A DNA stretch of 64,000 nt, taken from the IMG/VR virus record IMGVR_UViG_3300043467_001216. One strand, 5' to 3'. The stretch comes from a virus. Taxonomy: Duplodnaviria; Heunggongvirae; Uroviricota; Caudoviricetes. Positions 1-63,394 of the stretch are shown here, one piece after another (position 1 is the first letter of the stretch; the number at the start of each line of letters is the position of its first letter). The notes beneath the pieces are model-generated. The model saw only the letters and a list, made by a program, of their open reading frames with translations. It was not told where the DNA came from and did not search any database. The position numbers were made by a program, and so were the translations under genes.

Positions 1-978
1 GCTATTGAGATTGGGGCGATGACTGCCTTAGTTGCGGTAACAAATAGAATTAAAGGTGGTGTTTGGTTAATGTTTGGATTGGTTACGTTCATTCAAATGG
101 TGGGTAATATATTCTTCTCATATAAGGAAGTTGATACTGCGAGTTACTTATTTAAATCTTGGATTGAATTAACGGCACCTATTTGGGAGGCGTTAGGTTC
201 GGACTCTACTGATTTAGTTGCTATGAAACGATGGATTGCGTTTTTGGAAGGTGGTTTACTACCAATCATTTCACTAACATCATTACACTTCTTTGTTAAG
301 TTTGATGATGGTAAACCTAAGATTGAACAAGCGGTTAATGACCAAATTACCGATTCGGTAACTCAATCAATTGAAGAAGATGTTGAACCTATGATTCATC
401 CTGAAGCTATTGAAAATGGGGTTTACGAGACAAGTAAAATAGTTAATGAACATAAGGAAGATGAAGCTAAAAAAGTTTGGAATAAAGTTCGTGAATTAAG
501 AGAAGAAGGTAAATTACCTACACCTACTCAGGAAGATTTGGAAGATGAACCAACGGCATTAGCTTTCACACCATATGAAGTTGAAGAAGAATCACCAATC
601 GTTGAAACATTTGTTAGTGAAGATGAATATCTTGATTTACAAGATAGTCATTCATTAGTAAGTGAACCTGTAAGTGAACCTGTAAGTGAACCTGTAAATG
701 AGGTTGTAAATGAGGTTGTAAATGAATCTGAAACTGAGGGAATAACTGAGGGAATAACTGAGGGTGTAAATGAGGGTGTAAATGAGGGTGTAGAACCGAT
801 TATTGAAACAACTGAAACTATTAATGACGATATTCGAGAGATATTGGAAGAAATTGGTGATGAGGTTATTTCACAAGATGAAACAGAAGAACAAGTAATT
901 AATGTTGAAGAGATTATTTCACAAGACGAACCGGAAGAAAATAAAGTAAGACGTTTGAGTTATGTGAAAAAATCATAA
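1..978 (+). CDS. membrane-anchored acidic repeat protein (5' end probably outside window)
   Basis: Frame open from base 1 (no stop before ATG at 19); hydrophobic helices near N-terminus; D/E-rich tail with tetrapeptide repeats SEPV/NEVV/TEGI/NEGV. Confidence 0.6.
   Translation, partial: AIEIGAMTALVAVTNRIKGGVWLMFGLVTFIQMVGNIFFSYKEVDTASYLFKSWIELTAPIWEALGSDSTDLVAMKRWIAFLEGGLLPIISLTSLHFFVKFDDGKPKIEQAVNDQITDSVTQSIEEDVEPMIHPEAIENGVYETSKIVNEHKEDEAKKVWNKVRELREEGKLPTPTQEDLEDEPTALAFTPYEVEEESPIVETFVSEDEYLDLQDSHSLVSEPVSEPVSEPVNEVVNEVVNESETEGITEGITEGVNEGVNEGVEPIIETTETINDDIREILEEIGDEVISQDETEEQVINVEEIISQDEPEENKVRRLSYVKKS
661..792 (+). repeat. 11 tandem in-frame 12-bp units
   Basis: agtgaacctgta x3, aatgaggttgta x2, aatgaatctgaa, actgagggaata x2, actgagggtgta, aatgagggtgta x2. 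Confidence 0.9.
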
Positions 979-5488: not shown

Positions 5489-5668
5489 ATGGAAACATTA
5501 GAACAAATCAAAACTTTGACTGAGGAATTGTCAGTTGACGCAACTAAGTTCTTTAAAGGTAATAACAGTGCGGGAACAAGAGCGAGACAATCGGCTCAAA
5601 AATTAAAGAATTTATTACAATCTTTAAGAGAAGAGATTTTAACGGAAAGAAAAAAAGAGGAGAAGTAA
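5489..5668 (+). CDS. histone H1-like small basic DNA-binding protein (Bacteroidetes type)
   Basis: 59-aa ORF below ORF-track cutoff; FFKGNNSAGTRARQSAQKLKNLLQSLREEI matches the ~60-aa H1/Hc1-like proteins common in Bacteroidetes. Confidence 0.5.
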   Translation: METLEQIKTLTEELSVDATKFFKGNNSAGTRARQSAQKLKNLLQSLREEILTERKKEEK

Positions 5669-6444: not shown

Positions 6445-6677
6445 TTGAGAAACTAGCGTTGATTAGTGATGCTGTTGACTCGTTATTTCCTGATGGTAGA
6501 AGTGCGGTTGTGTTTCAATTGAAGACTGAGGAGTTTAAGAAAGTACAAAGTAATTTTAGAGAAATTGATAGGGAACACAAACAATTTAAAATTGATATCT
6601 CTGGTGTTGAATTTATTTTTTTTGAGGAAACGTCGTTGACTGACGAAATAAATACTGTTTCGGATAACCAAGATTAA
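6411..6677 (+). CDS. hypothetical protein
   Basis: 88-aa ORF; 3' end overlaps convergent gene by 65 nt. Confidence 0.45.
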   Translation: MEENYKSVDGIIEKLALISDAVDSLFPDGRSAVVFQLKTEEFKKVQSNFREIDREHKQFKIDISGVEFIFFEETSLTDEINTVSDNQD

Positions 6678-7251
6678 CTAACATATCGTAAAGATATTTT
6701 CGTTGTGGGGTGGATGAATCTTTAATAAAGATACAATCCATCCTTTTTTCATTTATATACTTTTGAGATAAGTTATCTATGAAACGTGACGAATCAATTT
6801 CATTCTTAAATGTGAAAAGATTTGTGTTCTCATTTAGTTGAACGATTACCTTATTATTTAGTTTTGAAACCATTTTTAATCCGTCACCCCTTAAATACTT
6901 TTTAATTAATTCCTCACAATTGATTTTCTTTTTAGTGGAATAATCGACAAACTCTTCGTTTATTTTGTAATTGTTTATTTGTAACATACAGTAATCATCG
7001 TCTTCTACGGTAACCTTACTTTGTCTACCAAATTCATCTTTAATGTATATTGTGTTATTTTTTGATTTAGGTCCTAACAACCCTAATTCAAAGGTACTAT
7101 GATACCCGTTTTCGTGTTGTCTGTCAAAAATAACCTCATCACTAATAGATAATAGATTATTATAATACTTTTGAGCCCTATCAATTGTTTTAAATTTCTT
7201 GATAATTTTCTTTTTTAATCTATTTTTGAATAACACTATTATATAGTCCAT
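6613..7251 (-). CDS. hypothetical protein
   Basis: 212-aa minus-strand ORF. Confidence 0.65.
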   Translation of the reverse strand: MDYIIVLFKNRLKKKIIKKFKTIDRAQKYYNNLLSISDEVIFDRQHENGYHSTFELGLLGPKSKNNTIYIKDEFGRQSKVTVEDDDYCMLQINNYKINEEFVDYSTKKKINCEELIKKYLRGDGLKMVSKLNNKVIVQLNENTNLFTFKNEIDSSRFIDNLSQKYINEKRMDCIFIKDSSTPQRKYLYDMLVNLGYPKQYLFRQSTTFPQKK

Positions 7252-7284: not shown

Positions 7285-8208
7285 ATGCAAACAAATTATT
7301 ACGACGTACTTGGAGTTAAAGAAAACTCAGACCAAGACACGATTAAAAAAGCTTATAGGTCTTTGGCGAAAAAACATCATCCAGATAAAGGTGGTAATGA
7401 TGAGATGTTTAAGAAAGTTTCTGAAGCTTATGATGTTTTAGGGGATGAAAATAAACGAAGACAATATGATACCCAAAAACAAAACCCATTTCATAATGCA
7501 AGAGGTGGTGGGAATGGATTTAATCCATTTGATGAAATGTTCAATATGTTTAATGGTGGTCGACAAAGACAGAGAACTGTTCCTGATAAAATAATTGATA
7601 TTTTAATAACACCTGTAGAATCCTATAATGCGGTTGATAAACATATTAAATATCAAAGAAAACATATGTGTGTTGATTGTCACGGTAATGGGGGTGATAG
7701 ACAACACTGTGGACATTGTAATGGTACTGGTGTGATAACACAACGAATTGGTACGGGAATGTTTATTCAAATGGTTCAATCGCATTGTAATGTTTGTAAT
7801 GGTGTTGGTTATACATATACTAGAGTTTGTGGGACTTGTAAAGGTTCTTGTACTACTGAAAAAATGGACAGTATTAGTGTTAAATTACCTCACGGAATTG
7901 ATGACGGTCAATTTTTGAAAGTTCAAGGGAGAGGTGATTTTAGTAATGGTATTTATGGTAATTTAATTATTAGAATTAAAGTTAAAAATGATAGTAATTT
8001 TGAGAAATTTGGGGATGATTTAATTTATAATAAATTTTTGAACTTAGATGAATTAAAAGTGGATTCGTTTGTAGTCCCACATCCTTCAGGTGACTTATCA
8101 ATAAAAATACCACCAGTATTTGATTCATCAATACCTTTAAGAGTTAAATCTAAAGGTTATAATAATGGTGAGTTGTATATTAAATTATATGTAAAGTTCA
8201 CACGTTAA
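7285..8208 (+). CDS. dnaJ: type I DnaJ/Hsp40 co-chaperone
   Basis: J domain with HPD (YYDVLGV...KKHHPDKGG); G/F-rich linker; four CxxCxGxG zinc-finger repeats ([32 protein letters not shown]); C-terminal domain. Confidence 0.9.
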
Positions 8209-9385: not shown

Positions 9386-10771
9386 ATGAAAATAACATCA
9401 GTTTTAAGGAACATATTATTAGAAGATTCACGATTTGAAAATTTATATACTAAATTTGTTGAACCTGCTCCGTCGAAAGACCCTGCTAAACCAAATAAAC
9501 CTAAACTTAAATTCGATACGTTAAAGCAATTTATATTTGCTGACCCTACGTCAAAGATGCCTGAGGATGTTGATGCTGAAGGTTTATCGTTAGCCGATAT
9601 TAGAAATTTAGGTAATAAGTTTAAAGTAGGTGCTTATACTCAATGGTTGTTGAAAAACTTCTTTAAACCGACTTTCCAAGGAGACCAAGCGAATGTTGAC
9701 CCATCAAGTCCTGAATATAAGGAAATGGTGAAGGAATTCAGACGTTTATTCCTTGAGGATTTGTTTAAGATGAATGATATTATCGGAAAGTTTGAACGTG
9801 TTAAACCATTAATACCGGCAGAACAACGTGATATTAATTCATATACACCGACAACGTTAACAAATTTAATTCTTAATTTACCTGAAGAATTAAAAGCTAA
9901 GATTCAAACTAAGGATGTAAAATCTCAGGCGAGAGAAGAAAGAAAGGCTAACAGATTCGCCCATCCAGGTGCTACAATTATGAAAGAGGGTACTAACTAT
10001 ACTTTAATTAAAATTGAAGGGACTGATACACCTCAGAAAGAGGCGGCACAGTGGTATGGTGGATTCTATGACTATATGAATGGTGAGTCACATTGGTGTA
10101 CTTCACCTCCGGGGTCTAACTACTTTATGACTTACGCATCGGCAGGTCCATTATATGTGATTATGGCTAACGATGATAAAGGACAGGTGGGTGCAAGAAC
10201 AGGACTTCCAACTGAAAGATACCAAATCAACTTCCCTAAAAACCAATTTATGGATAGAATGGACGGTAGATTTGATGTTGTTGAGAAATTCAATGGAGAC
10301 TTCGCTGAGTTTAAAGAAATCCTTAAACCTGAATTTGCAAAAGGATTCGTTATTCCAAATACTGATGAGGTTGAAATTACATATCCTGGAAGTTCTGCGG
10401 GTGTATTCATCGCATTATATGGATTTGATGATTTGATTAAATCATTACCAAAAACTATTAAACAGTTACACGTAAGTAATACTTCAAACACACCTGTTTA
10501 TTTAGATTTAAGTGATGCTATTGGTGAATTCACTGAATTAGATACGATATTATTACATAATGTTGTAAAAGAAATTCCTGAGTCAATCGGTAATCTTAGA
10601 AACTTAGATATATTGTCATTGACTGATAATAAAGAATTGAGAACATTACCAAAATCTATTCTTAATTTAGAAAATCTAACTTTCTTAGTGTTAACAGGTA
10701 GTAATGTTGATTTAGGTGATATGTCAGAGAACTTTTTTGAAACTGCTGACGGAGTTTATGCACTTGCTTAA
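9386..10771 (+). CDS. leucine-rich-repeat protein with PcfJ-like central motif
   Basis: C-terminal LRRs (IPESIGNLRNLDILSLTDNKELRTLPKSILNLENLTFLVL); central ESHWCTS..Y..GPLYVIM. Confidence 0.7.
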   Translation: MKITSVLRNILLEDSRFENLYTKFVEPAPSKDPAKPNKPKLKFDTLKQFIFADPTSKMPEDVDAEGLSLADIRNLGNKFKVGAYTQWLLKNFFKPTFQGDQANVDPSSPEYKEMVKEFRRLFLEDLFKMNDIIGKFERVKPLIPAEQRDINSYTPTTLTNLILNLPEELKAKIQTKDVKSQAREERKANRFAHPGATIMKEGTNYTLIKIEGTDTPQKEAAQWYGGFYDYMNGESHWCTSPPGSNYFMTYASAGPLYVIMANDDKGQVGARTGLPTERYQINFPKNQFMDRMDGRFDVVEKFNGDFAEFKEILKPEFAKGFVIPNTDEVEITYPGSSAGVFIALYGFDDLIKSLPKTIKQLHVSNTSNTPVYLDLSDAIGEFTELDTILLHNVVKEIPESIGNLRNLDILSLTDNKELRTLPKSILNLENLTFLVLTGSNVDLGDMSENFFETADGVYALA

Positions 10772-10786
10772 TAAAAAAACATAAAT

Positions 10787-11083
10787 ATGAAAAATTTAGA
10801 AGTTGATTTATACATCACACAATTTAGAGGTTTCTTCGATAAGAACCCAAATGACTTACTCTCTTTGATTGGTGATGTTTTGGTTGAAGATTTTTTTAAA
10901 CGTGTTGAAGAACAATGTTATAAAAATCTTGAGAAAGGTGATGAAGTATCTGTGACTAGACAACAACTAATTGATATTGTTGTCGACCTTAAATCGGAGG
11001 AGTCTGAATTTGAGAAAGACTTTAAGAGTTCAATCACAAAAGTATTCGAACATACTAAATTTGGAGACATCTGTCTTAACTAA
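10787..11083 (+). CDS. hypothetical protein
   Basis: 98-aa ORF followed by terminator. Confidence 0.6.
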   Translation: MKNLEVDLYITQFRGFFDKNPNDLLSLIGDVLVEDFFKRVEEQCYKNLEKGDEVSVTRQQLIDIVVDLKSEESEFEKDFKSSITKVFEHTKFGDICLN

Positions 11084-11085
11084 TT

Positions 11086-11112
11086 AAAACCCCCAAGACC
11101 TGGGGGTTTTTT
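11086..11112 (+). terminator. rho-independent terminator
   Basis: CCCCCA-agacc-TGGGGG followed by a T-run. Confidence 0.85.
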
Positions 11113-11173
11113 ATTATCTGAAAAAAAAAACAATTATTTTTTGTTGGGTGCTTGTACAATTAGATTTTATACA

Positions 11174-11181
11174 TATCTTTG
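11174..11181 (+). promoter_or_regulatory. Bacteroidetes-type -7 box
   Basis: TATCTTTG fits TAnnTTTG, 21 nt before ATG 11203. Confidence 0.5.
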
Positions 11182-11202
11182 ATAAACCAAAACGATAGAG
11201 AT

Positions 11203-11967
11203 ATGAGAAACACAGTTATGACATTAGACCAAGTAAAAGAAGTAGCACCATCAGTATTCGCTACAAGTGCATCACCAAAAGTATCTAACAGATACACATT
11301 CGTTCCAACCGTGGACATCGTAGAGAACTTCCAAAGAGAGGGATGGGAGATTGCAAGTGTTAAACAAACAGGTAAAGGTGTTCACGGATTACACGAAATC
11401 AAATTCCGTAATGGTGAGTTACCAAAAGTTGGTGACACATTGGTTGAGGCTATCGTTAAGAACTCACACAATGGTATGGCAACATTAAATATCTCCGCAG
11501 GACTACACAGATTGGTATGTGCTAACGGATTGACTGTCCCAACTTCATTGTCTGAGTCATTCAAAGTAAGACACACAGGTTTCGAGTTAGACGACGTTAA
11601 ACGTTTGACTGAGGACTTCTCAAAAAGATTACCATTAATCGAAGGGTCAGTGAACCGAATGATGGAGAGAGAGTTATCAACTGACGAGAAGTTGGACTTC
11701 GTTAGAAAATCCGCTGAGCTTCGTTGGAAAACAGGTTCAATTCCTGTGACATTGGACTACGAGGAAATCTTGAATCCATTGAGAGATGCTGACAACGGGG
11801 ATTCACTTTGGCAAGTATTCAACGTGGTTCAAGAGAAGTGGGTTAGAGGAGGTATCCAATACAAATCTAACGGTGGTCGTAAAACACAACTTAGAACGTT
11901 GAACGACATCTTGAACACCAACCGAATCAACACAAAACTTTGGGAGTTGGCTGAGGAAATGTTCTAA
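11203..11967 (+). CDS. DUF932 family protein (plasmid/ICE-associated)
   Basis: KNSHNGMATLNISAGLHRLVCANGL matches the DUF932 signature NSHDGS..GL.RLVC.NG; start moved from TTG 11179 to ATG 11203. Confidence 0.75.
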   Translation: MRNTVMTLDQVKEVAPSVFATSASPKVSNRYTFVPTVDIVENFQREGWEIASVKQTGKGVHGLHEIKFRNGELPKVGDTLVEAIVKNSHNGMATLNISAGLHRLVCANGLTVPTSLSESFKVRHTGFELDDVKRLTEDFSKRLPLIEGSVNRMMERELSTDEKLDFVRKSAELRWKTGSIPVTLDYEEILNPLRDADNGDSLWQVFNVVQEKWVRGGIQYKSNGGRKTQLRTLNDILNTNRINTKLWELAEEMF

Positions 11968-12032: not shown

Positions 12033-13772
12033 ATGGAAGTATTGTTAGACATTAAATCAGTTAAAAGTTCTGTAAATATATACAAGAATTATTGCCCATT
12101 AGAAATTGAAGATATTTTCGGGAAAGGGTCTTTTGATGCTAAAACGTTATATTCAGATAGTAAAAGACATACACATTACGAATTTGATAAATCTGAGGAA
12201 ATAAGTGGTTCTGACTTGTTTGACAAATATAAAAACGACCAATTATGTTCACCTTCAATAAATAGAAAAAGTGTTGAGGTATTAAAGAGTAATGAAAAGG
12301 TGACGATTAAAATTTATCGTTACAATTTACATAGAGAAATAGGGAAACCGTATTTCAGAAAATCAACCTCGTATGTTTCATTAACATATAATATTAAACG
12401 TAATCAGTTTTATTTCTTTCTTATTAACAATTATCACAAGAAAAGAAATTTTAGTAAAACACTTAGATGTCTTAGTCCGTACTTGATATTGAATCATTTC
12501 CGACACCACTTAGTTGATACTTTATCTAATCGTGATGATGTTGATAAAGTCTTTAATGTTTTTTTTAAAGGTATTTACGAAGATATGGTTAATTACGTTG
12601 ATTTACTTGAATACGTTGTTAAAAAACAAGGGTTTAAATTACCGAACAATTTTGATGTATTCGCTGATGCTATCGGTGGTAATGGTTTCTATGGTAGAAC
12701 ACCAACTAAATTAGATGGTAAGAGAAATGGGTTTAAATATATTGATACCATTATGGGTATTAACATTTTGAAGGGGGATAAACTTAGACGAGTATTACAT
12801 AAGGTATCAGGATTTAATTTGGGTTTATATTATGAAATGGCTAGTTACTTTAAGGATGATTTTATTTTATCAAGACCTGATGAGGACCTAATTAAAATCT
12901 TTAATTCAAATATTAGTTATTCATCATTAAATGGGAGTGTCTTGATGACTAGGCAAGAAAAAATTAATATGTATAATATTATTATGGAGTTGATTAATAC
13001 TAATAGTAGTGATTTGTATTCAATTTCTGACCATTTAAATATTAAAAATAAATTGTCTAAATACGAAACTGTGAAGTGGAAATCTAAAACATATGATGAG
13101 TTTGTTGATGAGCACGACGAATGGTCACGTAATTTAGATTCATACACTAAAGGTGTAACACAAAGAAGATATAATAAAGAGTTCCTTAATCACATTGAAA
13201 AACCGTTTGAAATGGATGGTATTAAATACTACCCTGTTGTTTTAAACAGTAGTGATGATTATAATAGAGAATCAACTGTTCAAACAAACTGTGTTAGAAC
13301 TTATATCCATTATGCTCATTCATTGATTGTGTCATTACGTAGAGATAGTAAAGACAGTTATGAAAGATTAACTATTGAGGTGAATTTAATACCTGATGAG
13401 GATGTTAGATTATTAAGAAAACAAACTAAGGCAAAGAGAAATTCAACACCTGACGATAGTTGGAGTTTAGCGACTCGTGAACTTGATGACAGAATTGAGT
13501 TTATTAATAAGAATGGGTTATTTACTTTACCTGAAATGGACGTAATTTATACACGAGGTTTACCTAGACACGCAAAGGTTGATAATAGACTGATTCACAA
13601 TGATGGTTACAGTTATTGGACTGTATGTTGGGATGATGAAGAAGTTGACTCTATTACTGGTCTGTCATATTTCCCTGTGATTGATGATGAGGTAACCCAA
13701 GATGAAATTGATTATTTATTAACTAATAACACTCCGAATTATGTTACGGAGGATGATGATTTACCATTATGA
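12033..13772 (+). CDS. PcfJ-like domain protein
   Basis: 579-aa ORF; TNCVRTYIHYAHSLIVSLRRDSKDSYERLTIEV resembles the PcfJ core (HCV..Y...I.SLR...TLE); recalled from memory, not searched. Confidence 0.6.
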   Translation: MEVLLDIKSVKSSVNIYKNYCPLEIEDIFGKGSFDAKTLYSDSKRHTHYEFDKSEEISGSDLFDKYKNDQLCSPSINRKSVEVLKSNEKVTIKIYRYNLHREIGKPYFRKSTSYVSLTYNIKRNQFYFFLINNYHKKRNFSKTLRCLSPYLILNHFRHHLVDTLSNRDDVDKVFNVFFKGIYEDMVNYVDLLEYVVKKQGFKLPNNFDVFADAIGGNGFYGRTPTKLDGKRNGFKYIDTIMGINILKGDKLRRVLHKVSGFNLGLYYEMASYFKDDFILSRPDEDLIKIFNSNISYSSLNGSVLMTRQEKINMYNIIMELINTNSSDLYSISDHLNIKNKLSKYETVKWKSKTYDEFVDEHDEWSRNLDSYTKGVTQRRYNKEFLNHIEKPFEMDGIKYYPVVLNSSDDYNRESTVQTNCVRTYIHYAHSLIVSLRRDSKDSYERLTIEVNLIPDEDVRLLRKQTKAKRNSTPDDSWSLATRELDDRIEFINKNGLFTLPEMDVIYTRGLPRHAKVDNRLIHNDGYSYWTVCWDDEEVDSITGLSYFPVIDDEVTQDEIDYLLTNNTPNYVTEDDDLPL

Positions 13773-23618: not shown

Positions 23619-24539
23619 ATGATAGATACTTTTAACATAAATGACGGTAGTTTAAACAACCAAGTGTTCAACTATAATGGGAATACAGGGTGGCAAGTAT
23701 GGAACAAACCACCTAAATGTAATTTAGTGAATTTCTTTTTAGTTGGTGGTGGTGCCGGTGGTCAAGGTGGTATTATTAATTCTGCCGCCAATCGTAATGG
23801 AGGTGCGGGAGGTGGTTCTGCCGCCTTTTCATATATAACCGTTCCAGCATTTGCAATTCCCGATACTTTATATATATTAGTGGCAAGTGGTGGAACAGGA
23901 GGTGCGTCAAGTGGTGGTGCCGGTGGTCAAGGAAGTCTTAGTTATGTCTGTTCTGTACCTGATACGTCAACTGTTAATAATATATTAATGAGGAGTGGTT
24001 CGGCGAATGCGGGTGTTACAACAACAACAACTGCGGGTGCGGCAATTACTGTTGCGGATATTTTATTAGCTGAGGCTGCGTTTATTTCAGGATATGCGGG
24101 TCAAACAGGTGGTGCGGGTGGTGTAACAAGTACTCCTGCGGTTGATATAACACCAACAGGTATTCCATTCACATCAGGTGCGGGTGGTGCTGGATGTGGT
24201 TCGACAGGAACGTTAGGTGTTGCGGGGGATATCGTAGGTATTTTAGATTTCCCAATTATCTCAGGTGGTACAAATACATCATCGGCAGGTGCGACTGCGG
24301 GTTCGGGAAATAACGGATTTTCGACAAGAGAAAGTTTTACTAGCCAAAATTATAAATATCCTATGTTCTTTACAGGAGGTGCCGGTGGTGGTGCAGCCTC
24401 TAACGCAACAGGTGTTGGAGGACGTGGTGGTGATGGAGCCTATGGTTGTGGTGGAGGAGGTGGTGGTGCCGGTGGAAACACAACTGCGGGACGTGGTGGT
24501 GATGGTGGTCACGGATTAGTTATAATTACAGTTACATAA
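23619..24539 (+). CDS. glycine-rich domain protein (paralog 1)
   Basis: MIDTFNI...WQVWNKP..C..V.FFLVGGGAGGQGG...GGAGGGSA...L.ILV..GGTGG...GGDGGHGLVIIT; Gly_rich-type pattern. Confidence 0.75.
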   Translation: MIDTFNINDGSLNNQVFNYNGNTGWQVWNKPPKCNLVNFFLVGGGAGGQGGIINSAANRNGGAGGGSAAFSYITVPAFAIPDTLYILVASGGTGGASSGGAGGQGSLSYVCSVPDTSTVNNILMRSGSANAGVTTTTTAGAAITVADILLAEAAFISGYAGQTGGAGGVTSTPAVDITPTGIPFTSGAGGAGCGSTGTLGVAGDIVGILDFPIISGGTNTSSAGATAGSGNNGFSTRESFTSQNYKYPMFFTGGAGGGAASNATGVGGRGGDGAYGCGGGGGGAGGNTTAGRGGDGGHGLVIITVT

Positions 24540-24542
24540 AAT

Positions 24543-25487
24543 ATGATAGATACTTTTCACATATCAGATGGTAGTGTCAATAGACAAGTGTTCTATGCGA
24601 CAGGACCGAATACCTTCCAAACTTGGAATAAACCCCAAAACTGTAAATTCGTTTACTTCGTATTAATCGGAGGTGGCGGAGGTGGCGGAGGTGGTCAAAG
24701 TGGTGGAACAGGAACCTCTCGTAGAGGTGGTGGTTCAGGTGGTTCAGGTGGATTAACTAAAGGTATGTTTCCCTCTTCAATTATTCCTGATAGATTATAT
24801 ATTCAAGTTGGTTCAGGTGGAACTGCTGGTGTTGGTGGTACGACTAACAGTGATGGTGGTACTGCTGGTATATCATATGTTATGGTTACACCTGACACTA
24901 CTGAAACTGCACAAAATATACTACTACAAAGTAGTTTGGCGGCTGCGGGTGGTGGTCGTTCAGGTTTAAATGGTGGTGCTCTTGGTGCTGCTGCAACGGC
25001 TTGGGTATTCACTAATAATATTTTTTATAAATTTGGGTTGGTTGATACTTATGCGGGTCAAGCGGGTGTTTTAGGTCAAACAACGGCATTACCAACTAAC
25101 TTAACAATTAGTGGTATTGTAAGTGGTGGTGGTCCAGGTGCGGGTCAAAACGGTGCAACTGCACAAGAGGGTGGTTCAGTTGTTGGTGGTGGGTCAATAC
25201 CTACAATGACAGGAGGACCAGCGGGTGGTTCAGCGACATCAACAACACCCGGAGGTAATGGTAGTGGTGGATATATGACATTTACCCCTAACACACTTGG
25301 ATACACAACAGAACCATTGATATTTATCGGTGGTGCTGGTGGTGGTTCATCAGATGGTGGACCCGGAGGTTCAGGAGCTGGCGGAGCCTATGGTTGTGGT
25401 GGTGGAGGAGGTGGAGCCGGAATAACTAACCAAGGTGGTAATGGTGGTAAAGGTGGTGACGGAATAGTCATAATAACGTGGTGGTAA
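24543..25487 (+). CDS. glycine-rich domain protein (paralog 2)
   Basis: same N- and C-terminal frame as paralog 1; 3-nt spacer. Confidence 0.75.
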   Translation: MIDTFHISDGSVNRQVFYATGPNTFQTWNKPQNCKFVYFVLIGGGGGGGGGQSGGTGTSRRGGGSGGSGGLTKGMFPSSIIPDRLYIQVGSGGTAGVGGTTNSDGGTAGISYVMVTPDTTETAQNILLQSSLAAAGGGRSGLNGGALGAAATAWVFTNNIFYKFGLVDTYAGQAGVLGQTTALPTNLTISGIVSGGGPGAGQNGATAQEGGSVVGGGSIPTMTGGPAGGSATSTTPGGNGSGGYMTFTPNTLGYTTEPLIFIGGAGGGSSDGGPGGSGAGGAYGCGGGGGGAGITNQGGNGGKGGDGIVIITWW

Positions 25488-25496
25488 TATTATAAA

Positions 25497-26459
25497 ATGA
25501 TAGATACATTCAATTTACCTGGAAAGGAAAGGTATACACAAATTTTTACAGTAAACTCAAGTGGGTCAACAGGTTGGGAAACTTGGAATAAACCATCAAA
25601 CATTTCTTACATCCATATTTTATGTATTGGTGGTGGAGGAGGTGGAGGAGGGGCTCGTGGTAGTTCGCTGAATACCGCAACAGGAGGAGGTGGTGGAGGT
25701 TCTGCAGCTCACTCAATTGGATTATTTCCTGCGGTTTTATTACCTGATACATTATTCGTTCAGGTGGGTAAAGGAGGTGCTAGTGGTGTTGGTGGTGCTA
25801 AGGGTGTTAACGGAACTGATGGTGGTTCGGGAGAACATTCTTATGTGTCAGTTATACCATCAACGGGAACTACTGCGGTATTGATGAAAAACGGTACTGC
25901 GGGTGCTGATGGTGGTAATGGTGGACAAAGTTCAGTTCAAGGTGCTGCGGGAACTGCGGGAACAACTTGGACTTATAACACAACATTTATATTTCCCCAA
26001 TTAGGACAGATATCACCATTTGCTGGTCAAAATGGTGGTATCGGTGGTTCAACAGGTGGTGGTAATGGTGGTTCGATAACTATTACAGGTCCAACAACAG
26101 GTGGTGGTGGTGGAGGTGGAACAACAAGTGGTGGCTCATCAGGTGGTGGTGGTTCAATTACGGGTGTTGGGATAATACCAACTATTGTTGGTGGAACTGC
26201 GAATTCATTAACGGCTAGTAATGGTGCGGGTGGTTATGGTATGAATTTATTAACAACTGAATCAAGTTCACCAAGTCCTTTATTTTTTACGGGAGCTGCG
26301 GGTGGTGGTGGTGCTGGTCCAAATGCTGATAGAGAAGGTGGTGACGGAGGTCACGCTGCTTACGGTTCAGGAGGTGGAGGTGGAGGTGCATCTTATAATG
26401 GTAAAGGTGGTGACGGAGGTAAAGGTGGTGATGGTGTTGTAATTATTACTTGTTGGTAG
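25497..26459 (+). CDS. glycine-rich domain protein (paralog 3)
   Basis: same frame as paralogs 1 and 2; 9-nt spacer. Confidence 0.75.
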   Translation: MIDTFNLPGKERYTQIFTVNSSGSTGWETWNKPSNISYIHILCIGGGGGGGGARGSSLNTATGGGGGGSAAHSIGLFPAVLLPDTLFVQVGKGGASGVGGAKGVNGTDGGSGEHSYVSVIPSTGTTAVLMKNGTAGADGGNGGQSSVQGAAGTAGTTWTYNTTFIFPQLGQISPFAGQNGGIGGSTGGGNGGSITITGPTTGGGGGGGTTSGGSSGGGGSITGVGIIPTIVGGTANSLTASNGAGGYGMNLLTTESSSPSPLFFTGAAGGGGAGPNADREGGDGGHAAYGSGGGGGGASYNGKGGDGGKGGDGVVIITCW

Positions 26460-30307: not shown

Positions 30308-30742
30308 ATGAAATCGAGAGTGAATATAGTTAACAAGAAAGTTAAGTTTGAATACTTTTTCGTTGAGACATTTGTCGTTGGGGTTAAACTACAGGGTTCT
30401 GAGGTTAAGTCAATCAGTGACTCAAAAGTTTCAATGACTGATACGTATTGTTACTTTAAGAATGGTGAGTTATATGTTAAAGGGTTAAACATTGCTAGTT
30501 CTAATGTGTCATACGCTCACGAACCTATGAGGGAACGTAAATTGTTAATGAAGAAGAAAGAATTGCGTAAACTTGAGAACGAATTAATTAATGGGTTAAC
30601 GATTGTTCCGTATAGATTGTATCGTAATGAGACCGGGTTGATTAAGATGGAGATTGTATTAGCCAAAGGTAAGAAGTTGTGGGATAAGAGAGATTCGATT
30701 AAAGAACGAGATATAAATAGAGAATTAAAACGAGGTCTATGA
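30308..30742 (+). CDS. smpB: SsrA-binding protein SmpB
   Basis: full-length similarity to bacterial SmpB as recalled: NKK.KFEYF..E.F..G..LQGSEVKS, RKLLM...EL.KL and AKGKKLWDKRDSIKERD tail. Confidence 0.9.
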   Translation: MKSRVNIVNKKVKFEYFFVETFVVGVKLQGSEVKSISDSKVSMTDTYCYFKNGELYVKGLNIASSNVSYAHEPMRERKLLMKKKELRKLENELINGLTIVPYRLYRNETGLIKMEIVLAKGKKLWDKRDSIKERDINRELKRGL

Positions 30743-52676: not shown

Positions 52677-53063
52677 ATGAGTAGAGTTAATTTGATTGCA
52701 TCAACAGGGTTAATCTTCAATGAAGATAAGTCAATGGTATTAGGTGTGTCACGTAAAGACGATAAAACTAAATTTGGTTTACCTGGTGGTAAGGTTGATG
52801 AAGGTGAAACAATGTATGAAGCATTGGTTAGAGAGTTGAAAGAAGAAACAGGATTGGATGTTATTAAGGCGGTCCCGATATATTTCAGAGAAGATGGTAT
52901 ATACGTGACCGTGGTTTATTTGATTAGTGAATATTCAGGTGATATATATACAGAAGAGGCCGGTGTCGTTAAATGGGTTACATTTGAAGAATTGAAACAC
53001 GGGGCGTTCTCAGAATACAATACAATGTTGGAGGAACATTTGAAATTTATAAATTATATATGA
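52677..53063 (+). CDS. Nudix hydrolase
   Basis: Nudix box GLPGGKVDEGETMYEALVRELKEETGL. Confidence 0.85.
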   Translation: MSRVNLIASTGLIFNEDKSMVLGVSRKDDKTKFGLPGGKVDEGETMYEALVRELKEETGLDVIKAVPIYFREDGIYVTVVYLISEYSGDIYTEEAGVVKWVTFEELKHGAFSEYNTMLEEHLKFINYI

Positions 53064-53818
53064 ATATGAAGAAATTAATTTATTTTACATTAGGTAATAA
53101 TCCAAATTACTTAAAATTGGCTGATATGTGTATTAACAGTTTATATCATAATGGTTATGATGGTGATTTTTTATTTATAACTGACTTAAAGAATGAGATT
53201 TTAAACCAAATCAATTTTAAAACTCAACCTTATTTTTTAGAATTAAAAGAATCTTCATTGTTAGAATCGTCGGCGAATAAACTTAAAGTTTATTCATTTA
53301 ATAAAATAAATGAATATGATAAAATTATATTTTCAGATTTAGATATTTTATGGGTGTCGAACCCTGAAATAATTTTTAATCTTATTGATGAGGATAAATT
53401 TTATATGAGTAATGAAGAAGGGTTAATGACTGATGAATTATGGGGTGGTTTGTTGTTAACTGATACTGAAAAAATTGAAATTGACCAATTGAAAATTTTT
53501 GGGTTAAATTGTGGTCTATTTGCGTTTAATAACAAAATGATACCGTATTTAGAGCAGGTTGATTTATTTTTGAATAATAATTTAGAGTTACAAAATGTGT
53601 GTTTAGAACAACCATTTTTGAATGTTTATGTTTATCGTAATAATTTATATAATAATAAATTGAATGGTTTGGTTAGTCATAAAGGTTATCATTTTGTTAA
53701 TTCACCTTTAGATTTAATCAAATATGATGGTGTTGTTTTACATTTTGCAGGTGGTCCTGGTAATTATGATTTTAAATATGAAAAAATGTTGATTTATTTT
53801 AACGAATATTTTAAATAA
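53060..53818 (+). CDS. glycosyltransferase (GT8-like, DxD)
   Basis: IIFSDLDILW DxD motif; overall nucleotide-diphospho-sugar transferase layout. Confidence 0.6.
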   Translation: MNMKKLIYFTLGNNPNYLKLADMCINSLYHNGYDGDFLFITDLKNEILNQINFKTQPYFLELKESSLLESSANKLKVYSFNKINEYDKIIFSDLDILWVSNPEIIFNLIDEDKFYMSNEEGLMTDELWGGLLLTDTEKIEIDQLKIFGLNCGLFAFNNKMIPYLEQVDLFLNNNLELQNVCLEQPFLNVYVYRNNLYNNKLNGLVSHKGYHFVNSPLDLIKYDGVVLHFAGGPGNYDFKYEKMLIYFNEYFK

Positions 53819-53830
53819 ATAACGTGTTAT

Positions 53831-54031
53831 ATGTTGGTTGAGGGGGAATATAATTATGCTAAACTAATTACTATTGAAGGTGATGTTGTCGCGGTTGCGG
53901 TTATGGAAGTAGGTTCAGAGAATGAAGCTGGTGTTGTTAATTGGGCTTTAGATAATGATTTCACCTTAGTTAAGATTGACGAACAAGAGTTTTTGGATTT
54001 TGAAAGTGATTATGATATTGAACTTGAATAA
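53831..54031 (+). CDS. hypothetical protein
   Basis: 66-aa ORF. Confidence 0.5.
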   Translation: MLVEGEYNYAKLITIEGDVVAVAVMEVGSENEAGVVNWALDNDFTLVKIDEQEFLDFESDYDIELE

Positions 54032-54069
54032 AATTTTCACTCAGGTGTTGTGCATATCCAAAAGATAGT

Positions 54070-54077
54070 TATATTTG
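54070..54077 (+). promoter_or_regulatory. Bacteroidetes-type -7 box driving the sRNA
   Basis: TATATTTG with no ORF downstream. Confidence 0.5.
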
Positions 54078-54083
54078 TAGTGT

Positions 54084-54306
54084 GTGAGTGTCACACAGGA
54101 TGTCAGAACTCCTAACTTACAATCTGACCATTAAGTATCAGGTGAGATGATACGGGTTGATTACCCCAACTTAGTAAGTGAAACCATCAGGATGTCAGAA
54201 CTCCTAGTTCACAATCTGACCACTAAGAATCGGGTGAGGCGGTTCGGGTTAAACACCTCAATCCAAAGGATGAAATTTAAACCCCCAAGTACATTGGGGG
54301 TTTTTT
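54084..54306 (+). ncRNA. candidate phage sRNA: 5' hairpin, two tandem 92-nt pseudoknot-like units, intrinsic terminator
   Basis: no ORF on either strand; units start at 54096 and 54188 (46 of the first 52 nt identical); AGGA/TCCT interleaved with GTCAGA/TCTGAC; terminator CCCCCAA-gtaca-TTGGGGG followed by T6; 5' end approximate. Confidence 0.6.
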
Positions 54307-54316
54307 GTTTTATCTA

Positions 54317-54331
54317 ATATTTATTGATATG
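54317..54331 (+). promoter_or_regulatory. ATATTTATTGATATG motif containing the start codon
   Basis: identical to 15892 and 36986. Confidence 0.5.
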
Positions 54332-55278: not shown

Positions 55279-55337
55279 ATCGTAAATTATCTATAACTTT
55301 AGTCATAAAAGAAATTTTAGATTAAATACTAACGATT

Positions 55338-55535: not shown

Positions 55536-55958
55536 ATGGATAAAAAGATTGGATTTACGTGTTCCTGTTTTGATTTATTTCATGCGGGACATATTATGAT
55601 GCTTAAAGAAGCTAAAAGTGTTTGTGATTACTTAATAGTTGGTTTACAGAGTGACCCCACGTTAGACAGACCTGAGAAGAATAAACCTGTTCAAAGTATA
55701 GTTGAAAGATTTATTCAATTGGATGCTTGTAAGTATGTTGATGAGATTGTGGTTTATGCGACAGAAAAAGATTTAATGGACGTATTGTTATCGTATCCAA
55801 TCAATGTTAGGATTGTTGGGGATGAATACGCTGAAGTTAATTTTACAGGTAAAAACTTACAACATATTGAAATTTATTATAATACAAGACGACATTCATT
55901 TTCAACAACAGAATTAAGAAAACGAGTAATTGAATTATCAAATGGACAAAGTAAGTGA
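55536..55958 (+). CDS. cytidylyl/adenylyltransferase (RfaE domain II / TagD-like)
   Basis: CSCFDLFHAGHIMMLKEAK (HxGH motif), LIVGLQSD, VDEIVVY and FSTTELRKRV match the glycerol-3-P cytidylyltransferase / heptose-1-P adenylyltransferase family. Confidence 0.8.
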   Translation: MDKKIGFTCSCFDLFHAGHIMMLKEAKSVCDYLIVGLQSDPTLDRPEKNKPVQSIVERFIQLDACKYVDEIVVYATEKDLMDVLLSYPINVRIVGDEYAEVNFTGKNLQHIEIYYNTRRHSFSTTELRKRVIELSNGQSK

Positions 55959-56478: not shown

Positions 56479-56482
56479 TAAA

Positions 56483-57196
56483 ATGAAAAAGAAAATTGTT
56501 GTATTCACAGGTGCTGGTGTTTCAAGAGAAAGTGGTGTCTTGACATTTAGAGATAGTGTGGATGGGTTATGGGAGAATCATAGTATTGATGATGTTTGTA
56601 CACCTTCAGGATGGAAAAAAGACCGTGAGAAGGTTTTGAATTTTTATAACGATAGACGAAGACAATTACCTACGGTTGAACCTAACTCAGCCCACACAGG
56701 TTTGGTTAAGTTAGAGGACAAATATGACGTAACAATCGTTACCCAAAATGTTGATGACCTACACGAAAGAGCGGGTTCATCTAAGATATTACATTTACAC
56801 GGTGAGTTGACTAAAGCCAGAGGTGCGATGTATAGTCATAAGACAAGTCCATTGGATAATATCGTGGTGATTGGTTATAATGATATTAACATTGGTGATA
56901 AGTGTGAGATAACAGGTTCACAGTTGAGACCCCACATTGTTTGGTTTGAAGAGATGCCATTCAACGTCGAGGAAAGTTATGACGCAATAACCGAATCTGA
57001 TGTGTTAATCATTATCGGAACTAGTTTGATGATTGGTTACACATTAAATCTATTATCAAGTGTTAGTGATGAGTGTAAGATTTATTATATTGACCCCCAA
57101 CCAAGTAGGTATTTGGACCATTTAGGTAAAGATATTACTTACATTGAGAAACCGGCAACGGAAGGTGTTGAATTAATTTTAAATGAATTGTTATGA
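56483..57196 (+). CDS. cobB: Sir2-family NAD-dependent protein deacylase (CobB type)
   Basis: VVFTGAGVSRESGVLTFRD, QNVDDLHERAG, HLHGE, RPHIVWFEE and IIIGTS are collinear with CobB; most zinc-module cysteines are absent. Confidence 0.9.
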   Translation: MKKKIVVFTGAGVSRESGVLTFRDSVDGLWENHSIDDVCTPSGWKKDREKVLNFYNDRRRQLPTVEPNSAHTGLVKLEDKYDVTIVTQNVDDLHERAGSSKILHLHGELTKARGAMYSHKTSPLDNIVVIGYNDINIGDKCEITGSQLRPHIVWFEEMPFNVEESYDAITESDVLIIIGTSLMIGYTLNLLSSVSDECKIYYIDPQPSRYLDHLGKDITYIEKPATEGVELILNELL

Positions 57197-62313: not shown

Positions 62314-62593
62314 TATTAAAGGTCGTGAATTCAAGTATATAGTTCAAAATCAATGTAGTGAATATGGTGATTACTATTGGACTGAGTTTTATGAGGAAAC
62401 ATATACTAAAACATATAAAAAGTATTGGTTATTTGGTCCGACATTGACTAAGGAAGAACCAATTGTGTTATTTCAATTATCTTTAAATGTTGAAGACGAG
62501 TATTACACCAAATCAGATATTAGGTCAAAAATTTTAAGACAACTTGAATTGCTGGATAGGAAAGAACAAATTGAAAGAGGTGAATTGATATGA
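62300..62593 (+). CDS. hypothetical protein
   Basis: start moved to ATG 62300 (14-nt overlap). Confidence 0.5.
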   Translation: MKKVNIKGREFKYIVQNQCSEYGDYYWTEFYEETYTKTYKKYWLFGPTLTKEEPIVLFQLSLNVEDEYYTKSDIRSKILRQLELLDRKEQIERGELI

Positions 62594-62961
62594 AAAATCG
62601 TTATAATGATATAATTGATGAGGTGTATGACAAATACGATGAGTTATTTGATTCATATTATCCTGCGTTTAGTGCTCCATATCCAAAAAGATTAACCAAA
62701 GAAGAATTGGTTCAGGAAATAAAGAATGGTGGTAGTGTTCTTAAAGAGTTCCAATTGGATGTTAAGATAACTGAACGTGAGTTGAGTTTGGAGGAAAGGT
62801 TTAATCTAAGATATCCTGGTGGTAAATTCTCGGTATTCCAAGAGAACTACCCCAACACACACAAAAGAAATGACCCAAATGGGTTATTAGATGCTTTCGA
62901 TATCCCCACCAAAAAATATAGACTTGAATATAAAAACGAAATTGTTGAATATTATGAATGA
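62590..62961 (+). CDS. hypothetical protein (paralog A)
   Basis: MKNRYNDIIDEVYDKY...ITERELSLEERFN...YKNEIVEYYE. Confidence 0.6.
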   Translation: MKNRYNDIIDEVYDKYDELFDSYYPAFSAPYPKRLTKEELVQEIKNGGSVLKEFQLDVKITERELSLEERFNLRYPGGKFSVFQENYPNTHKRNDPNGLLDAFDIPTKKYRLEYKNEIVEYYE

Positions 62962-63394
62962 AAGATATAATCAAATAATTGATGAGGTATATAATGGGTA
63001 TTTAGTTCATACTATCTCAGGTGTTGAAAATGGTTTTGATAAAATCAAAGGTTATTTAGATAAATGTTTAGTTGAATTTGATGGTGAGTACGAACATTTT
63101 AATAATCCATCATTTCAATATGGGTATCGTCCACATACACAAGAAGAGTTCGTCAACAAAATCAAAACAGATGATGAGTTTGGTGAAAAGTGGGGTAAAA
63201 TAACTGAACGTGAGTTGAGTTTTAAAGAAAGACAGAACTATGGTATTGATATTCTTGGATATGAGAGCTTATTAGATTATGGTCATTCACAAAATGATGA
63301 TGATATAATATTAGAATTATTAAATATTTGGAATGTTCCCACCAAAGTAATAACACTTGATTATAAAAACGAAATTGTTGAATATTATGAATGA
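62954..63394 (+). CDS. hypothetical protein (paralog B)
   Basis: MNERYNQIIDEVYNGY...ITERELSFKERQN...YKNEIVEYYE; start at ATG 62954. Confidence 0.6.
   Translation: MNERYNQIIDEVYNGYLVHTISGVENGFDKIKGYLDKCLVEFDGEYEHFNNPSFQYGYRPHTQEEFVNKIKTDDEFGEKWGKITERELSFKERQNYGIDILGYESLLDYGHSQNDDDIILELLNIWNVPTKVITLDYKNEIVEYYE

What the first reader, a model, noticed from the sequence alone, without database searches (positions are those of the whole stretch)
7285..8208. Complete type I DnaJ encoded by the phage without a visible DnaK or GrpE
The ORF has a J domain with HPD, a G/F linker, all four CxxCxGxG zinc-finger repeats and the C-terminal substrate-binding region. Phage J-proteins are usually short J-domain-only proteins. 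A full Hsp40 implies direct recruitment of host DnaK to phage clients, for example replication or head assembly. No DnaK or GrpE is present in this window.
Basis: partly seen in the sequence, partly recalled or inferred. Interest (0 to 1): 0.5.

Follow-up and report, generated by a model that had tools for sequence, protein, structure and literature searches.

The report
Jumbo-phage DnaJ lacking its dimerisation tail
A large freshwater phage carries a conserved, nearly full-length copy of the bacterial chaperone helper DnaJ, most likely to steer the host's DnaK folding machine; such genes were already reported for this kind of phage, so the finding is real but largely known.

Summary
The ORF at 7285..8208 (+, 307 aa) is real. 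It is a class A (type I) J-domain protein. It has a J domain with HPD, a short G/F linker, a zinc-finger region with all eight cysteines, and both C-terminal beta-sandwich domains.

Two corrections apply. The fourth zinc repeat is CxxCxGxC, not CxxCxGxG. The protein also stops where the dimerisation helix of canonical DnaJ begins, so it is not "complete".

No DnaK or GrpE lies in the window, or within 10 kb of the orthologue in 86 related viral contigs.

The gene is not a recent host capture:
- At least 217 IMG/VR contigs, up to 322 kb, carry it.
- It sits in a conserved syntenic block.
- Median dN/dS is 0.11.
- Canonical-length DnaJs are at most about 40% identical.

The window matches the published freshwater "moraphage" jumbo-phage lineage, with likely Bacteroidota hosts. 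That lineage was reported in 2025 to encode DnaJ commonly and DnaK in 8 of 25 genomes, but membership here is inferred.

Best explanation: a phage co-chaperone, probably monomeric, that recruits host DnaK. This is inferred, not tested.

The only apparently undescribed point is the family-wide loss of the dimerisation domain.

Interest is low to moderate.

The parts
7285..8208 (+). dnaJ-like gene (307 aa): a class A J-domain protein without a dimerisation domain.
   Evidence: ORF list. Pfam DnaJ, DnaJ_CXXCXGXG and DnaJ_C. TIGR02349 match to profile positions 1-331 of 354 at 236 bits. PHROG 14336, E 9e-61. AlphaFold2 model, mean pLDDT 75. Foldseek matches to DNAJA2, S. pneumoniae DnaJ and Ydj1.
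7294..7470 (+). J domain (residues 4-62), with H32-P33-D34 and a basic helix II (K21, K22, Y24, R25, K29, K30).
   Evidence: Pfam PF00226, E 1.7e-23. HPD is invariant in 23 aligned and in 48 unique family sequences. Four helices in the model.
7471..7584 (+). Short Gly/Phe-rich linker (residues 63-100). It contains the motif [11 protein letters not shown], which resembles the DIF / helix V element of DnaJ.
   Evidence: Read directly from the sequence. Residues 67-96 have pLDDT below 50, with a short helix at 83-90. F79, F82 and F86 are conserved across the family. The resemblance to the DIF motif comes from my own knowledge, not from a test.
7597..8199 (+). C-terminal client-binding region, CTD1 plus CTD2 (residues 105-305). 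It ends 2 residues before the stop codon, with no dimerisation helix.
   Evidence: Pfam PF01556 covers profile positions 4-151 of 152. The model is beta-rich. The alignment with E. coli DnaJ ends at its residue about 328-331. Other phage DnaJs keep the following 'LxxxEKxxLExL' helix, and this family does not.
7669..7848 (+). Zinc-finger-like region inserted in CTD1 (residues 129-188). Repeats: [24 protein letters not shown] and CGTCKGSC.
   Evidence: Pfam PF00684, E 3.6e-8, 34.0 bits against a 32.7-bit cut-off. C129, C132, C142, C145, C168, C171, C182 and C185 are invariant. The final G of repeat 4 is present in only 16 of 48 family members.

Best explanation
The gene encodes a functional Hsp70 co-chaperone of a freshwater jumbo phage. 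The phage is moraphage-like, and its host is probably in the Bacteroidota.

**Proposed mechanism**
- During infection, CTD1, the zinc-finger region and CTD2 bind non-native phage proteins. Candidate clients are the many large virion or replication proteins of a genome of at least about 250 kb.
- The J domain, through HPD and the basic helix II, docks on the host's DnaK-ATP and triggers ATP hydrolysis. The client is then locked onto DnaK.
- Host GrpE recycles DnaK.
- The whole family lacks the C-terminal dimerisation helix, so the protein probably acts as a monomer that cannot pair with host DnaJ. This would give the phage its own client-selection channel into the host Hsp70 system.

**Shown**
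- The domain architecture and the conservation of the catalytic and zinc-binding residues.
- Purifying selection and long residence in the phage lineage.
- The absence of DnaK and GrpE nearby.

**Inferred**
- The interaction with DnaK.
- The partner being host DnaK rather than a phage DnaK.
- The clients.
- The monomeric state and its consequences.
For: **Architecture and fold**
- Domain matches.
- HPD, helix-II basic residues and all eight zinc-binding cysteines are invariant across aligned family members that are 50-89% identical to the window protein.

**Selection and spread**
- dN/dS has a median of 0.11 and a maximum of 0.17 in 44 pairs. For the window against L001 it is 0.11.
- 217 IMG/VR viral contigs, up to 322 kb, encode a relative with the family motifs.
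- At least 120 clusters at 90% identity, all but two of 294-312 aa, are 54-88% identical to the window protein.
- The gene sits in the same block in 86 of 86 related loci. The block runs amidase, Hc1, a conserved 212-aa ORF, DnaJ, Dam methylase, LRR protein, thioredoxin and glutaredoxin. The neighbours have diverged to a similar degree.

**No partner genes nearby**
- No DnaK or GrpE in the window.
- None within 10 kb either side of DnaJ in the 86 loci.

**Distinct from cellular DnaJ**
- Only one hit appeared in 185,579 species genomes: a 1.6-kb contig binned into a MAG.
- The closest cluster representatives all sit on metagenome contigs of 300 kb or less.

**Host**
- Bacteroidota-like translation signals: 3-6 of 106 genes have a Shine-Dalgarno motif, and the region from -10 to -14 is A-rich.

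**Literature**
- The same functional inference was made for jumbo-phage DnaJs (PMC7824862) and for moraphage DnaJs (PMC12619734).
Against: - There is no biochemical or genetic test, and no cultured host.
- Only 64 kb of a genome of about 250 kb or more is visible. The literature reports DnaK in 8 of 25 moraphage genomes. I found a related jumbo-phage lineage with HSP20-DnaK next to an Hc1 gene. A phage DnaK elsewhere in this genome is therefore possible.
- To my knowledge (Shi et al. 2005, J Biol Chem, not retrieved here), E. coli DnaJ truncated at about residue 330 is monomeric and poor at refolding. A protein without the dimerisation domain may therefore not be a generic co-chaperone.
- The one phage J-protein studied, Rki, is not a generic co-chaperone. 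It perturbs DnaK's control of sigma-32 instead.
- The protein scores below the NCBIfam DnaJ equivalog cut-off.
Confidence: 0.6

Rival explanations
1. The DnaJ works with a phage-encoded DnaK, and perhaps HSP20, located outside the 64-kb window. The phage would then bring much of its own Hsp70 system instead of recruiting the host's.
For: - The literature reports DnaK in 8 of 25 moraphage genomes, and HSP20 in some (PMC12619734).
- A large family of DnaK genes lies on contigs of 270-372 kb. It sits next to HSP20 and near an Hc1 gene whose L124 copy is 61% identical to the window's.
Against: - There is no DnaK in the window or in any of 86 DnaJ-centred 20-kb loci.
- The paper states that DnaJ is more common than DnaK in these genomes.
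- The longest-contig lengths listed for the 120 best DnaK clusters do not coincide with those listed for the DnaJ-family clusters or the DnaJ-bearing contigs I saw. This is a weak test.
Confidence: 0.2
2. The protein is a host-takeover or counter-defence factor, not a folding helper. In one version it titrates or redirects host DnaK, as Rki of phage RB43 does when it stabilises sigma-32. In another it mimics or competes with host DnaJ to blind DnaJ-dependent immune sensors such as bNACHT25.
For: - Rki needs its J domain, is toxic through DnaK and is not a generic co-chaperone (PMC3486835).
- bNACHT25 needs host DnaJ to sense phage protein (PMC12169576).
- Loss of the dimerisation domain fits a protein that engages DnaK or clients without joining host DnaJ dimers.
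- The moraphage paper raises the counter-defence idea.
Against: - The full client-binding module, CTD1, zinc-finger region and CTD2, is kept under strong purifying selection. A pure DnaK titrator would not need it. Rki has only a J domain.
- No defence-related context lies around the gene.
- Both precedents come from E. coli, not Bacteroidota.
Confidence: 0.15
3. The gene is a recently captured host dnaJ carried as a passenger, or is decaying, with no dedicated phage function.
For: - The abstract of PMC12619734 speaks of recent transfer of DnaK and DnaJ from Flavobacteriales.
- The C-terminus is truncated relative to cellular DnaJ.
Against: - The gene is conserved in at least 217 viral contigs and is syntenic in 86 of 86 loci.
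- dN/dS is about 0.11.
- The truncation point is identical across the family, which ends ...VKFxR at 301-311 aa.
- Identity to canonical-length DnaJ representatives is at most about 40%, and identity to E. coli DnaJ is 30%.
- The family motifs are absent from cellular genomes, apart from one 1.6-kb MAG contig.
Confidence: 0.03

Closest known systems
Moraphage DnaJ (Perez-Hernandez, Aldaroub, Barth and Aylward, Arch Virol 2025, PMC12619734)
   Same: - Freshwater jumbo phages of 200-307 kb with predicted Bacteroidota/Flavobacteriia hosts.
- DnaJ is common in them and DnaK is present in only 8 of 25 genomes.
- They also carry a histone-H1-like Hc1 gene (PF07432), a sigma factor, glutaredoxin and exonuclease subunit 2. 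All of these appear in or beside this window.
- The paper proposes the same functional ideas: recruiting host DnaK, or counter-defence.
   Different: - Membership of this window in that lineage is inferred from shared features.
- The paper's main text does not mention domain architecture, the zinc finger or the missing dimerisation domain.
- Its abstract speaks of recent transfer from Flavobacteriales. For this DnaJ family my data show old residence and no close cellular relative.
Bacterial class A JDP, DnaJ (E. coli DnaJ; S. pneumoniae DnaJ, PDB 6jzb)
   Same: - J domain with HPD, a G/F linker, a zinc-finger region with 8 cysteines inserted in CTD1, and CTD2.
- Alignable end to end up to the last strand of CTD2.
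- The predicted fold matches.
   Different: - About 30% identical to E. coli DnaJ and about 35% to 6jzb.
- The G/F linker and the loop between zinc repeats 1 and 2 are shorter.
- The final G of the fourth repeat is not conserved.
- There is no dimerisation domain and no C-terminal extension.
- The score is below the TIGR02349 equivalog cut-off.
DnaJ homologues of other huge phages (LR745206, Prevotella phage Lak-C1, Agrobacterium phage Atu_ph07); PHROG 14336
   Same: - Phage-encoded multi-domain DnaJ homologues in genomes above 450 kb.
- They are about 30-32% identical to the window protein.
   Different: - LR745206 (360 aa) and Lak-C1 (361 aa) keep the C-terminal 'LxxxEKxxLExL' helix that follows CTD2.
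- Atu_ph07 (268 aa) lacks the zinc finger, so it is class-B-like, but it also keeps that helix.
- The window family stops just before the helix.
Rki of phage RB43 (PMC3486835)
   Same: A phage-encoded J-domain protein that acts through host DnaK.
   Different: In Rki only the J domain is DnaJ-like, and it has no generic co-chaperone activity. It stabilises sigma-32. The window protein carries the whole client-binding module.

Membership tests
Class A (type I) J-domain protein / DnaJ | N-terminal J domain with the HPD tripeptide | tested here: met
   PF00226, E 1.7e-23, residues 4-62. H32-P33-D34 is invariant in the family.
Class A (type I) J-domain protein / DnaJ | Gly/Phe-rich region after the J domain | tested here: met
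   Residues 63-100 are rich in G and F and are disordered in the model. The region is shorter than in E. coli.
Class A (type I) J-domain protein / DnaJ | Zinc-finger domain with four CxxCxGxG repeats protruding from CTD1. This is the diagnostic feature of the class (PMC12799103). | tested here: met
   PF00684 scores 34.0 bits against a 32.7-bit cut-off. All 8 cysteines are invariant. The fourth repeat is CxxCxGxC here, and its last G is present in only 16 of 48 relatives.
Class A (type I) J-domain protein / DnaJ | Two beta-sandwich client-binding domains, CTD1 and CTD2 | tested here: met
   PF01556 covers profile positions 4-151 of 152. Foldseek matches to 7zhs, 6jzb and 1nlt have TM-scores (normalised by target) of 0.63-0.69.
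Class A (type I) J-domain protein / DnaJ | Dimerisation domain and C-terminal extension after CTD2 (PMC12799103) | tested here: not met
   The protein ends at the equivalent of E. coli residue about 331. The TIGR02349 match stops at profile position 331 of 354. No helix follows strand 297-303 in the model. Other phage and bacterial DnaJs have the helix. Relatives at 46% identity or more (BLASTP) extend 2-4 residues beyond the window protein's C-terminus; more distant ones carry tails of up to about 50 residues.
Class A (type I) J-domain protein / DnaJ | NCBIfam TIGR02349 'DnaJ_bact' equivalog trusted cut-off | tested here: not met
   236.4 bits against a cut-off of 377.2.
Class A (type I) J-domain protein / DnaJ | Stimulates DnaK ATPase and delivers clients | not testable with these tools
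   This needs purified proteins or complementation of a dnaJ mutant.
Moraphage lineage (PMC12619734) | Jumbo genome of 200-307 kb from an aquatic, mostly freshwater, metagenome | tested here: met
   The identical DnaJ lies on contigs of 250,222 bp, 245,795 bp and 195,267 bp. Relatives lie on contigs of up to 322 kb. That the JGI samples are freshwater is my recollection, not a tool result.
Moraphage lineage (PMC12619734) | Characteristic gene content: Hc1 (PF07432), sigma factor, glutaredoxin, exonuclease subunit 2 and DnaJ | tested here: met
   Hc1 is at 5489..5668. Sigma70, an SbcC-like gene and glutaredoxin lie in or beside the window, and match the paper's lists.
Moraphage lineage (PMC12619734) | Placement inside the moraphage clade in MCP, TerL and PolB trees | not tested
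   None of these genes is in the window. The paper's sequences are only on Zenodo.
Rki-like J-domain-only phage proteins | A J domain with no DnaJ-type client-binding domains | tested here: not met
   CTD1, the zinc-finger region and CTD2 are present.

The most novel reading that the evidence does not exclude
The family-wide loss of the dimerisation helix is adaptive. The phage would use a monomeric class A DnaJ that cannot heterodimerise with the host DnaJ. This would create a private route that commits host DnaK to phage-chosen clients. Alternatively, it would pull DnaK or clients away from DnaJ-dependent host regulation or immunity. That would be a natural, widespread example of an Hsp40 re-engineered by a virus through domain deletion.
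Probability: 0.3. Interest if true: 0.55.

Novelty: new member of a known kind. Interest (0 to 1): 0.3.

Why it matters
Phage-encoded multi-domain Hsp40s have been noted in genome surveys but never studied experimentally. This family is abundant, with hundreds of contigs. It is strongly constrained and has a clean architectural difference from cellular DnaJ: it lacks the dimerisation domain. That makes it a convenient test case for how large phages plug into the host Hsp70 system. It can also test whether dimerisation is dispensable for a class A co-chaperone in vivo. As a discovery it is modest, because the presence of DnaJ in this phage lineage and the host-DnaK-recruitment idea are already in print.

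Tried and rejected
1. **Close phage relatives.** Megablast of window 1-25000 against 50,697 phage records found no match. The lineage is absent from that collection.
2. **DnaK on the same contigs.** I tried two routes.
  - An IMG/VR scan with E. coli DnaK returned only the 80 most E. coli-like loci, none on DnaJ-bearing contigs.
  - Both are uninformative, not negative.
3. **Contig-length fingerprint.** I searched with the DnaK of L124 and compared the 'longest_contig' values with those of the DnaJ clusters. There was no coincidence. This is only a weak test, because each cluster lists only its longest contig and only 120 clusters are shown.
4. **Walking beyond the window.** Look-ups for 62891..63394 and 19..978 found no exact product on record. 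The look-up for 62590..62961 showed contigs ending about 1.6 kb further on. Proteins outside the window cannot be looked up.
5. **Conserved divergent neighbour 6613..7251 (-).** I asked whether it could be a GrpE-like partner. It has no Pfam or PHROG hit. Its AlphaFold2 model is confident (pLDDT 86), but it has no PDB match better than E 0.02. It is not GrpE, and its function is unknown.
6. **Bacteroidota -7 promoter motif TAnnTTTG.** It occurs 1.4 times per kb upstream of genes against 0.9 per kb overall. One copy lies at -64 of dnaJ. This is too weak to use.
7. **Labelled phylogeny against host DnaJ.** This was not possible, because the tools returned no organism-labelled Bacteroidota DnaJ sequences. 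The single GTDB scan used family-specific motifs and can only exclude close cellular relatives.
8. **Rejected alternatives.** A chance ORF, a pseudogene and a recent passenger gene are all contradicted.

Full report
**1. Observation**

The ORF list gives an ATG-started ORF of 307 codons at exactly 7285..8208 on the + strand.

Pfam finds three domains above their gathering scores:
- DnaJ (PF00226), residues 4-62, E 1.7e-23.
- DnaJ_C (PF01556), residues 105-305, covering profile positions 4-151 of 152.
- DnaJ_CXXCXGXG (PF00684), residues 129-188.

Read directly from the translation:
- HPD is H32-P33-D34.
- The linker at residues 63-100 is rich in Gly and Phe.
- The zinc repeats are [24 protein letters not shown] and CGTCKGSC.

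An AlphaFold2 model built on 30 family sequences has mean pLDDT 75. It shows a four-helix J domain, a disordered linker with a short helix at 83-90, and a beta-rich C-terminal half. Foldseek matches this model to the class A proteins DNAJA2 (7zhs), S. pneumoniae DnaJ (6jzb) and Ydj1 (1nlt), with E 1e-19 to 2e-15.

Two corrections apply.

First, the fourth repeat lacks the final Gly.

Second, the protein is not complete:
- Its alignment to 6jzb ends at query 292 / chain residue 325 of 385.
- Its alignment to TIGR02349 ends at profile position 331 of 354, at 236 bits against a 377-bit cut-off.

What is missing is the dimerisation domain and C-terminal extension that belong to the class A architecture (PMC12799103).

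In an alignment with other phage DnaJs and E. coli DnaJ, all the others continue into a 'LxxxEKxxLExL'-type helix after CTD2. The window protein stops just before it.

**2. What carries the gene**

The window has about 30% G+C, is densely coded and is almost entirely on one strand.

The identical DnaJ protein is on record in 43 blocks of the metagenome collection. Contigs that carry it reach 250,222 bp, 245,795 bp and 195,267 bp.

Precomputed Pfam hits around it include:
- An SbcC-like exonuclease, a sigma-70 factor and an amidase.
- A 59-aa Hc1 (histone-H1-like) gene.
- A Dam methylase, thioredoxin and glutaredoxin.
- Laminin_G_3 proteins, SmpB, SIR2 and NUDIX.

PHROG hits are few. They include virion structural and tail-fibre-like families and phage DNA methyltransferase.

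IMG/VR classifies 217 contigs that carry relatives of this DnaJ as viral, up to 322 kb. There is no near-identical phage in the 50,697-record phage collection.

Only 3-6 of 106 genes have a Shine-Dalgarno-like motif, and positions -10 to -14 are A-rich. From general knowledge, this is typical of Bacteroidota.

These features fit the "moraphages" of Perez-Hernandez et al. 2025 (PMC12619734):
- 25 mostly freshwater jumbo phages of 200-307 kb with predicted Flavobacteriia hosts.
- Core genes that include sigma factor, glutaredoxin and exonuclease subunit 2.
- Hc1 (PF07432) in the complete genomes.
- DnaJ common, DnaK in 8 of 25, and HSP20 in some.

Membership is inferred from these shared features.

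**3. Conservation and origin**

The homologue search returned at least 120 clusters, 54-88% identical to the window protein. All but two are 294-312 aa long, and their longest contigs are at most 317 kb.

Among 48 unique IMG/VR orthologues:
- Lengths are 301-311 aa.
- HPD and four CxxCxG cores are present in all 48.
- The last Gly of repeat 4 is present in 16.

In 86 related loci the gene occupies the same position in a conserved block. Its median identity of 56% is similar to that of its neighbours, whose medians range from 31% to 79%.

Pairwise Nei-Gojobori dN/dS in 44 pairs that are 80-98% identical has a median of 0.11 and a maximum of 0.17. For the window against L001, dN is 0.057 and dS is 0.51.

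A scan of one genome per 185,579 prokaryotic species with two family-specific peptide motifs found a single relative. It lies on a 1,664-bp contig binned into an 'uncultured Chitinophaga' MAG, and is most simply a phage fragment.

In the exhaustive search of 1.84 billion cluster representatives:
- The ten close representatives I looked up all sit on metagenome contigs of 300 kb or less, none on a chromosome-sized contig.
- Representatives of canonical length (365 aa or more) are at most about 40% identical.

The gene is therefore an old, constrained resident of this phage lineage. The phrase 'recent gene transfer' in the abstract of PMC12619734 is not supported for this DnaJ family. The donor lineage remains unresolved, because I had no labelled Bacteroidota sequences.

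**4. DnaK and GrpE**

Within the window:
- No called gene across the window has an HSP70 or GrpE Pfam hit.

In relatives, none of the 86 DnaJ-centred 20-kb loci has either gene.

A separate family of DnaK genes exists on contigs of 270-372 kb. It is adjacent to HSP20 and close to an Hc1 gene; the L124 copy is 61% identical to the window's. This is probably the DnaK-bearing moraphage branch. I could not show whether this particular genome carries such a gene outside the window (section 8).

**5. Mechanism**

The best-supported reading is a working Hsp70 co-chaperone. The J domain keeps HPD and the basic face of helix II, which are the DnaK-docking elements. The equivalents of E. coli R22, K23, Y25 and K26 are K21, K22, Y24 and R25; this mapping comes and my own knowledge. 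The zinc centres and both CTDs are constrained, which argues that client binding matters.

With no DnaK or GrpE nearby, and with DnaJ more common than DnaK in the lineage, the partner is most likely host DnaK. The absence of the dimerisation helix predicts a monomer.

To my knowledge (Shi et al. 2005, J Biol Chem, not retrieved here), E. coli DnaJ(1-330) is monomeric and loses refolding activity while keeping its J-domain function. The phage protein may therefore be a specialised adaptor and not a generic DnaJ.

Rivals:
- A phage DnaK partner elsewhere in the genome.
- An Rki-like or counter-defence role (PMC3486835; PMC12169576).
- A passenger gene, which the evidence rejects.

**6. Comparison with the known**

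By architecture it is a class A JDP minus the dimerisation domain and C-terminal extension.

By context it is one of several DnaJ homologues known in very large phages:
- PHROG 14336.
- The Lak phages, LR745206 and Atu_ph07.
- The DnaJ already reported as common in moraphages.

The apparently undescribed element is the uniform lack of the dimerisation domain. The moraphage paper's main text contains no mention of dimer, zinc or truncation.

**7. Verdict**

This is a real, functional-looking, conserved phage DnaJ.

- Novelty: new member of a known kind, with a minor architectural twist.
- Interest: 0.3.

**8. What led nowhere**

- IMG/VR scans for DnaK were capped at 80 and 120 rows and were dominated by unrelated loci.
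- Matching contig lengths between DnaK and DnaJ clusters gave no coincidence, but this is a weak test.
- Look-ups to extend beyond the window failed or ran into contig ends.
- The conserved divergent neighbour 6613..7251 has a confident model but no known fold, and it is not GrpE.
- The Bacteroidota -7 promoter motif is only marginally enriched upstream of genes.

Noticed in passing
window 60273-60371 and 60443-60556 (+): Two adjacent paralogous tRNA-like genes share the same acceptor and T arms. They pass the Rfam tRNA gathering score (49.5 and 35.5 bits). They carry insertions of about 33 nt and about 53 nt at the anticodon loop or arm. ARAGORN does not call them. They may be intron-containing, disrupted or non-canonical tRNAs.
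   Followed up: partly
window 30308-30742 (+): A phage-encoded SmpB homologue (PF01668), the protein partner of tmRNA. No tmRNA gene was detected in the window by ARAGORN or Rfam.
   Followed up: partly
window 5489-5668 (+): A 59-aa Hc1 / histone-H1-like gene (PF07432). It is conserved in 82 of 86 related loci at a median 76% identity. The same family lies near HSP20-DnaK in related phage contigs of 315-348 kb; the L124 copy is 61% identical to the window's.
   Followed up: partly
window 6613-7251 (-): A 212-aa ORF transcribed divergently from dnaJ. It is conserved in 85 of 86 related loci and has more than 1,200 homologues in metagenomes. It has no Pfam or PHROG hit. Its AlphaFold2 model is confident (pLDDT 86, pTM 0.75), but it has no significant PDB match.
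   Followed up: yes
window 23619-26459 (+): Three tandem ORFs of similar size (306, 314 and 320 aa) lie where G+C rises locally to 0.46, against about 0.30 elsewhere. Two have faint or weak Gly_rich_2 hits, and the first, the only one scanned, has tail-fibre-like PHROG hits. They lie just after two Laminin_G_3 proteins.
   Followed up: no
window 52677-57196 (+): A cluster of genes that may relate to NAD metabolism (my reading): NUDIX (52677..53063), a cytidylyltransferase-family (CTP_transf_like) gene, possibly NMNAT (55536..55958), and SIR2 (56483..57196). The 55536..55958 gene has 61-68% identical copies beside DnaK genes on three other viral contigs.
   Followed up: no
window 12033-13772 (+): This 579-aa ORF has a weak PcfJ-like hit. 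It is much more variable than its neighbours: 58% identical in L001, where the neighbours are 91-99% identical. Contigs of 250 kb and 246 kb that carry this phage end within a few kb of it, at about window 10.2 kb and 14.5 kb, which suggests a strain-variable hotspot that breaks assemblies.
   Followed up: no
L296 (ENA ERZ19569752 scaffold_1, 315,546 bp), locus coordinates 9610-11890: An HSP20-DnaK gene pair in a jumbo-phage contig. The locus also carries Hc1, PolB and ribonucleotide reductase. At least 120 related DnaK clusters lie on contigs of 372 kb or less, which suggests a phage-borne DnaK family.
   Followed up: partly
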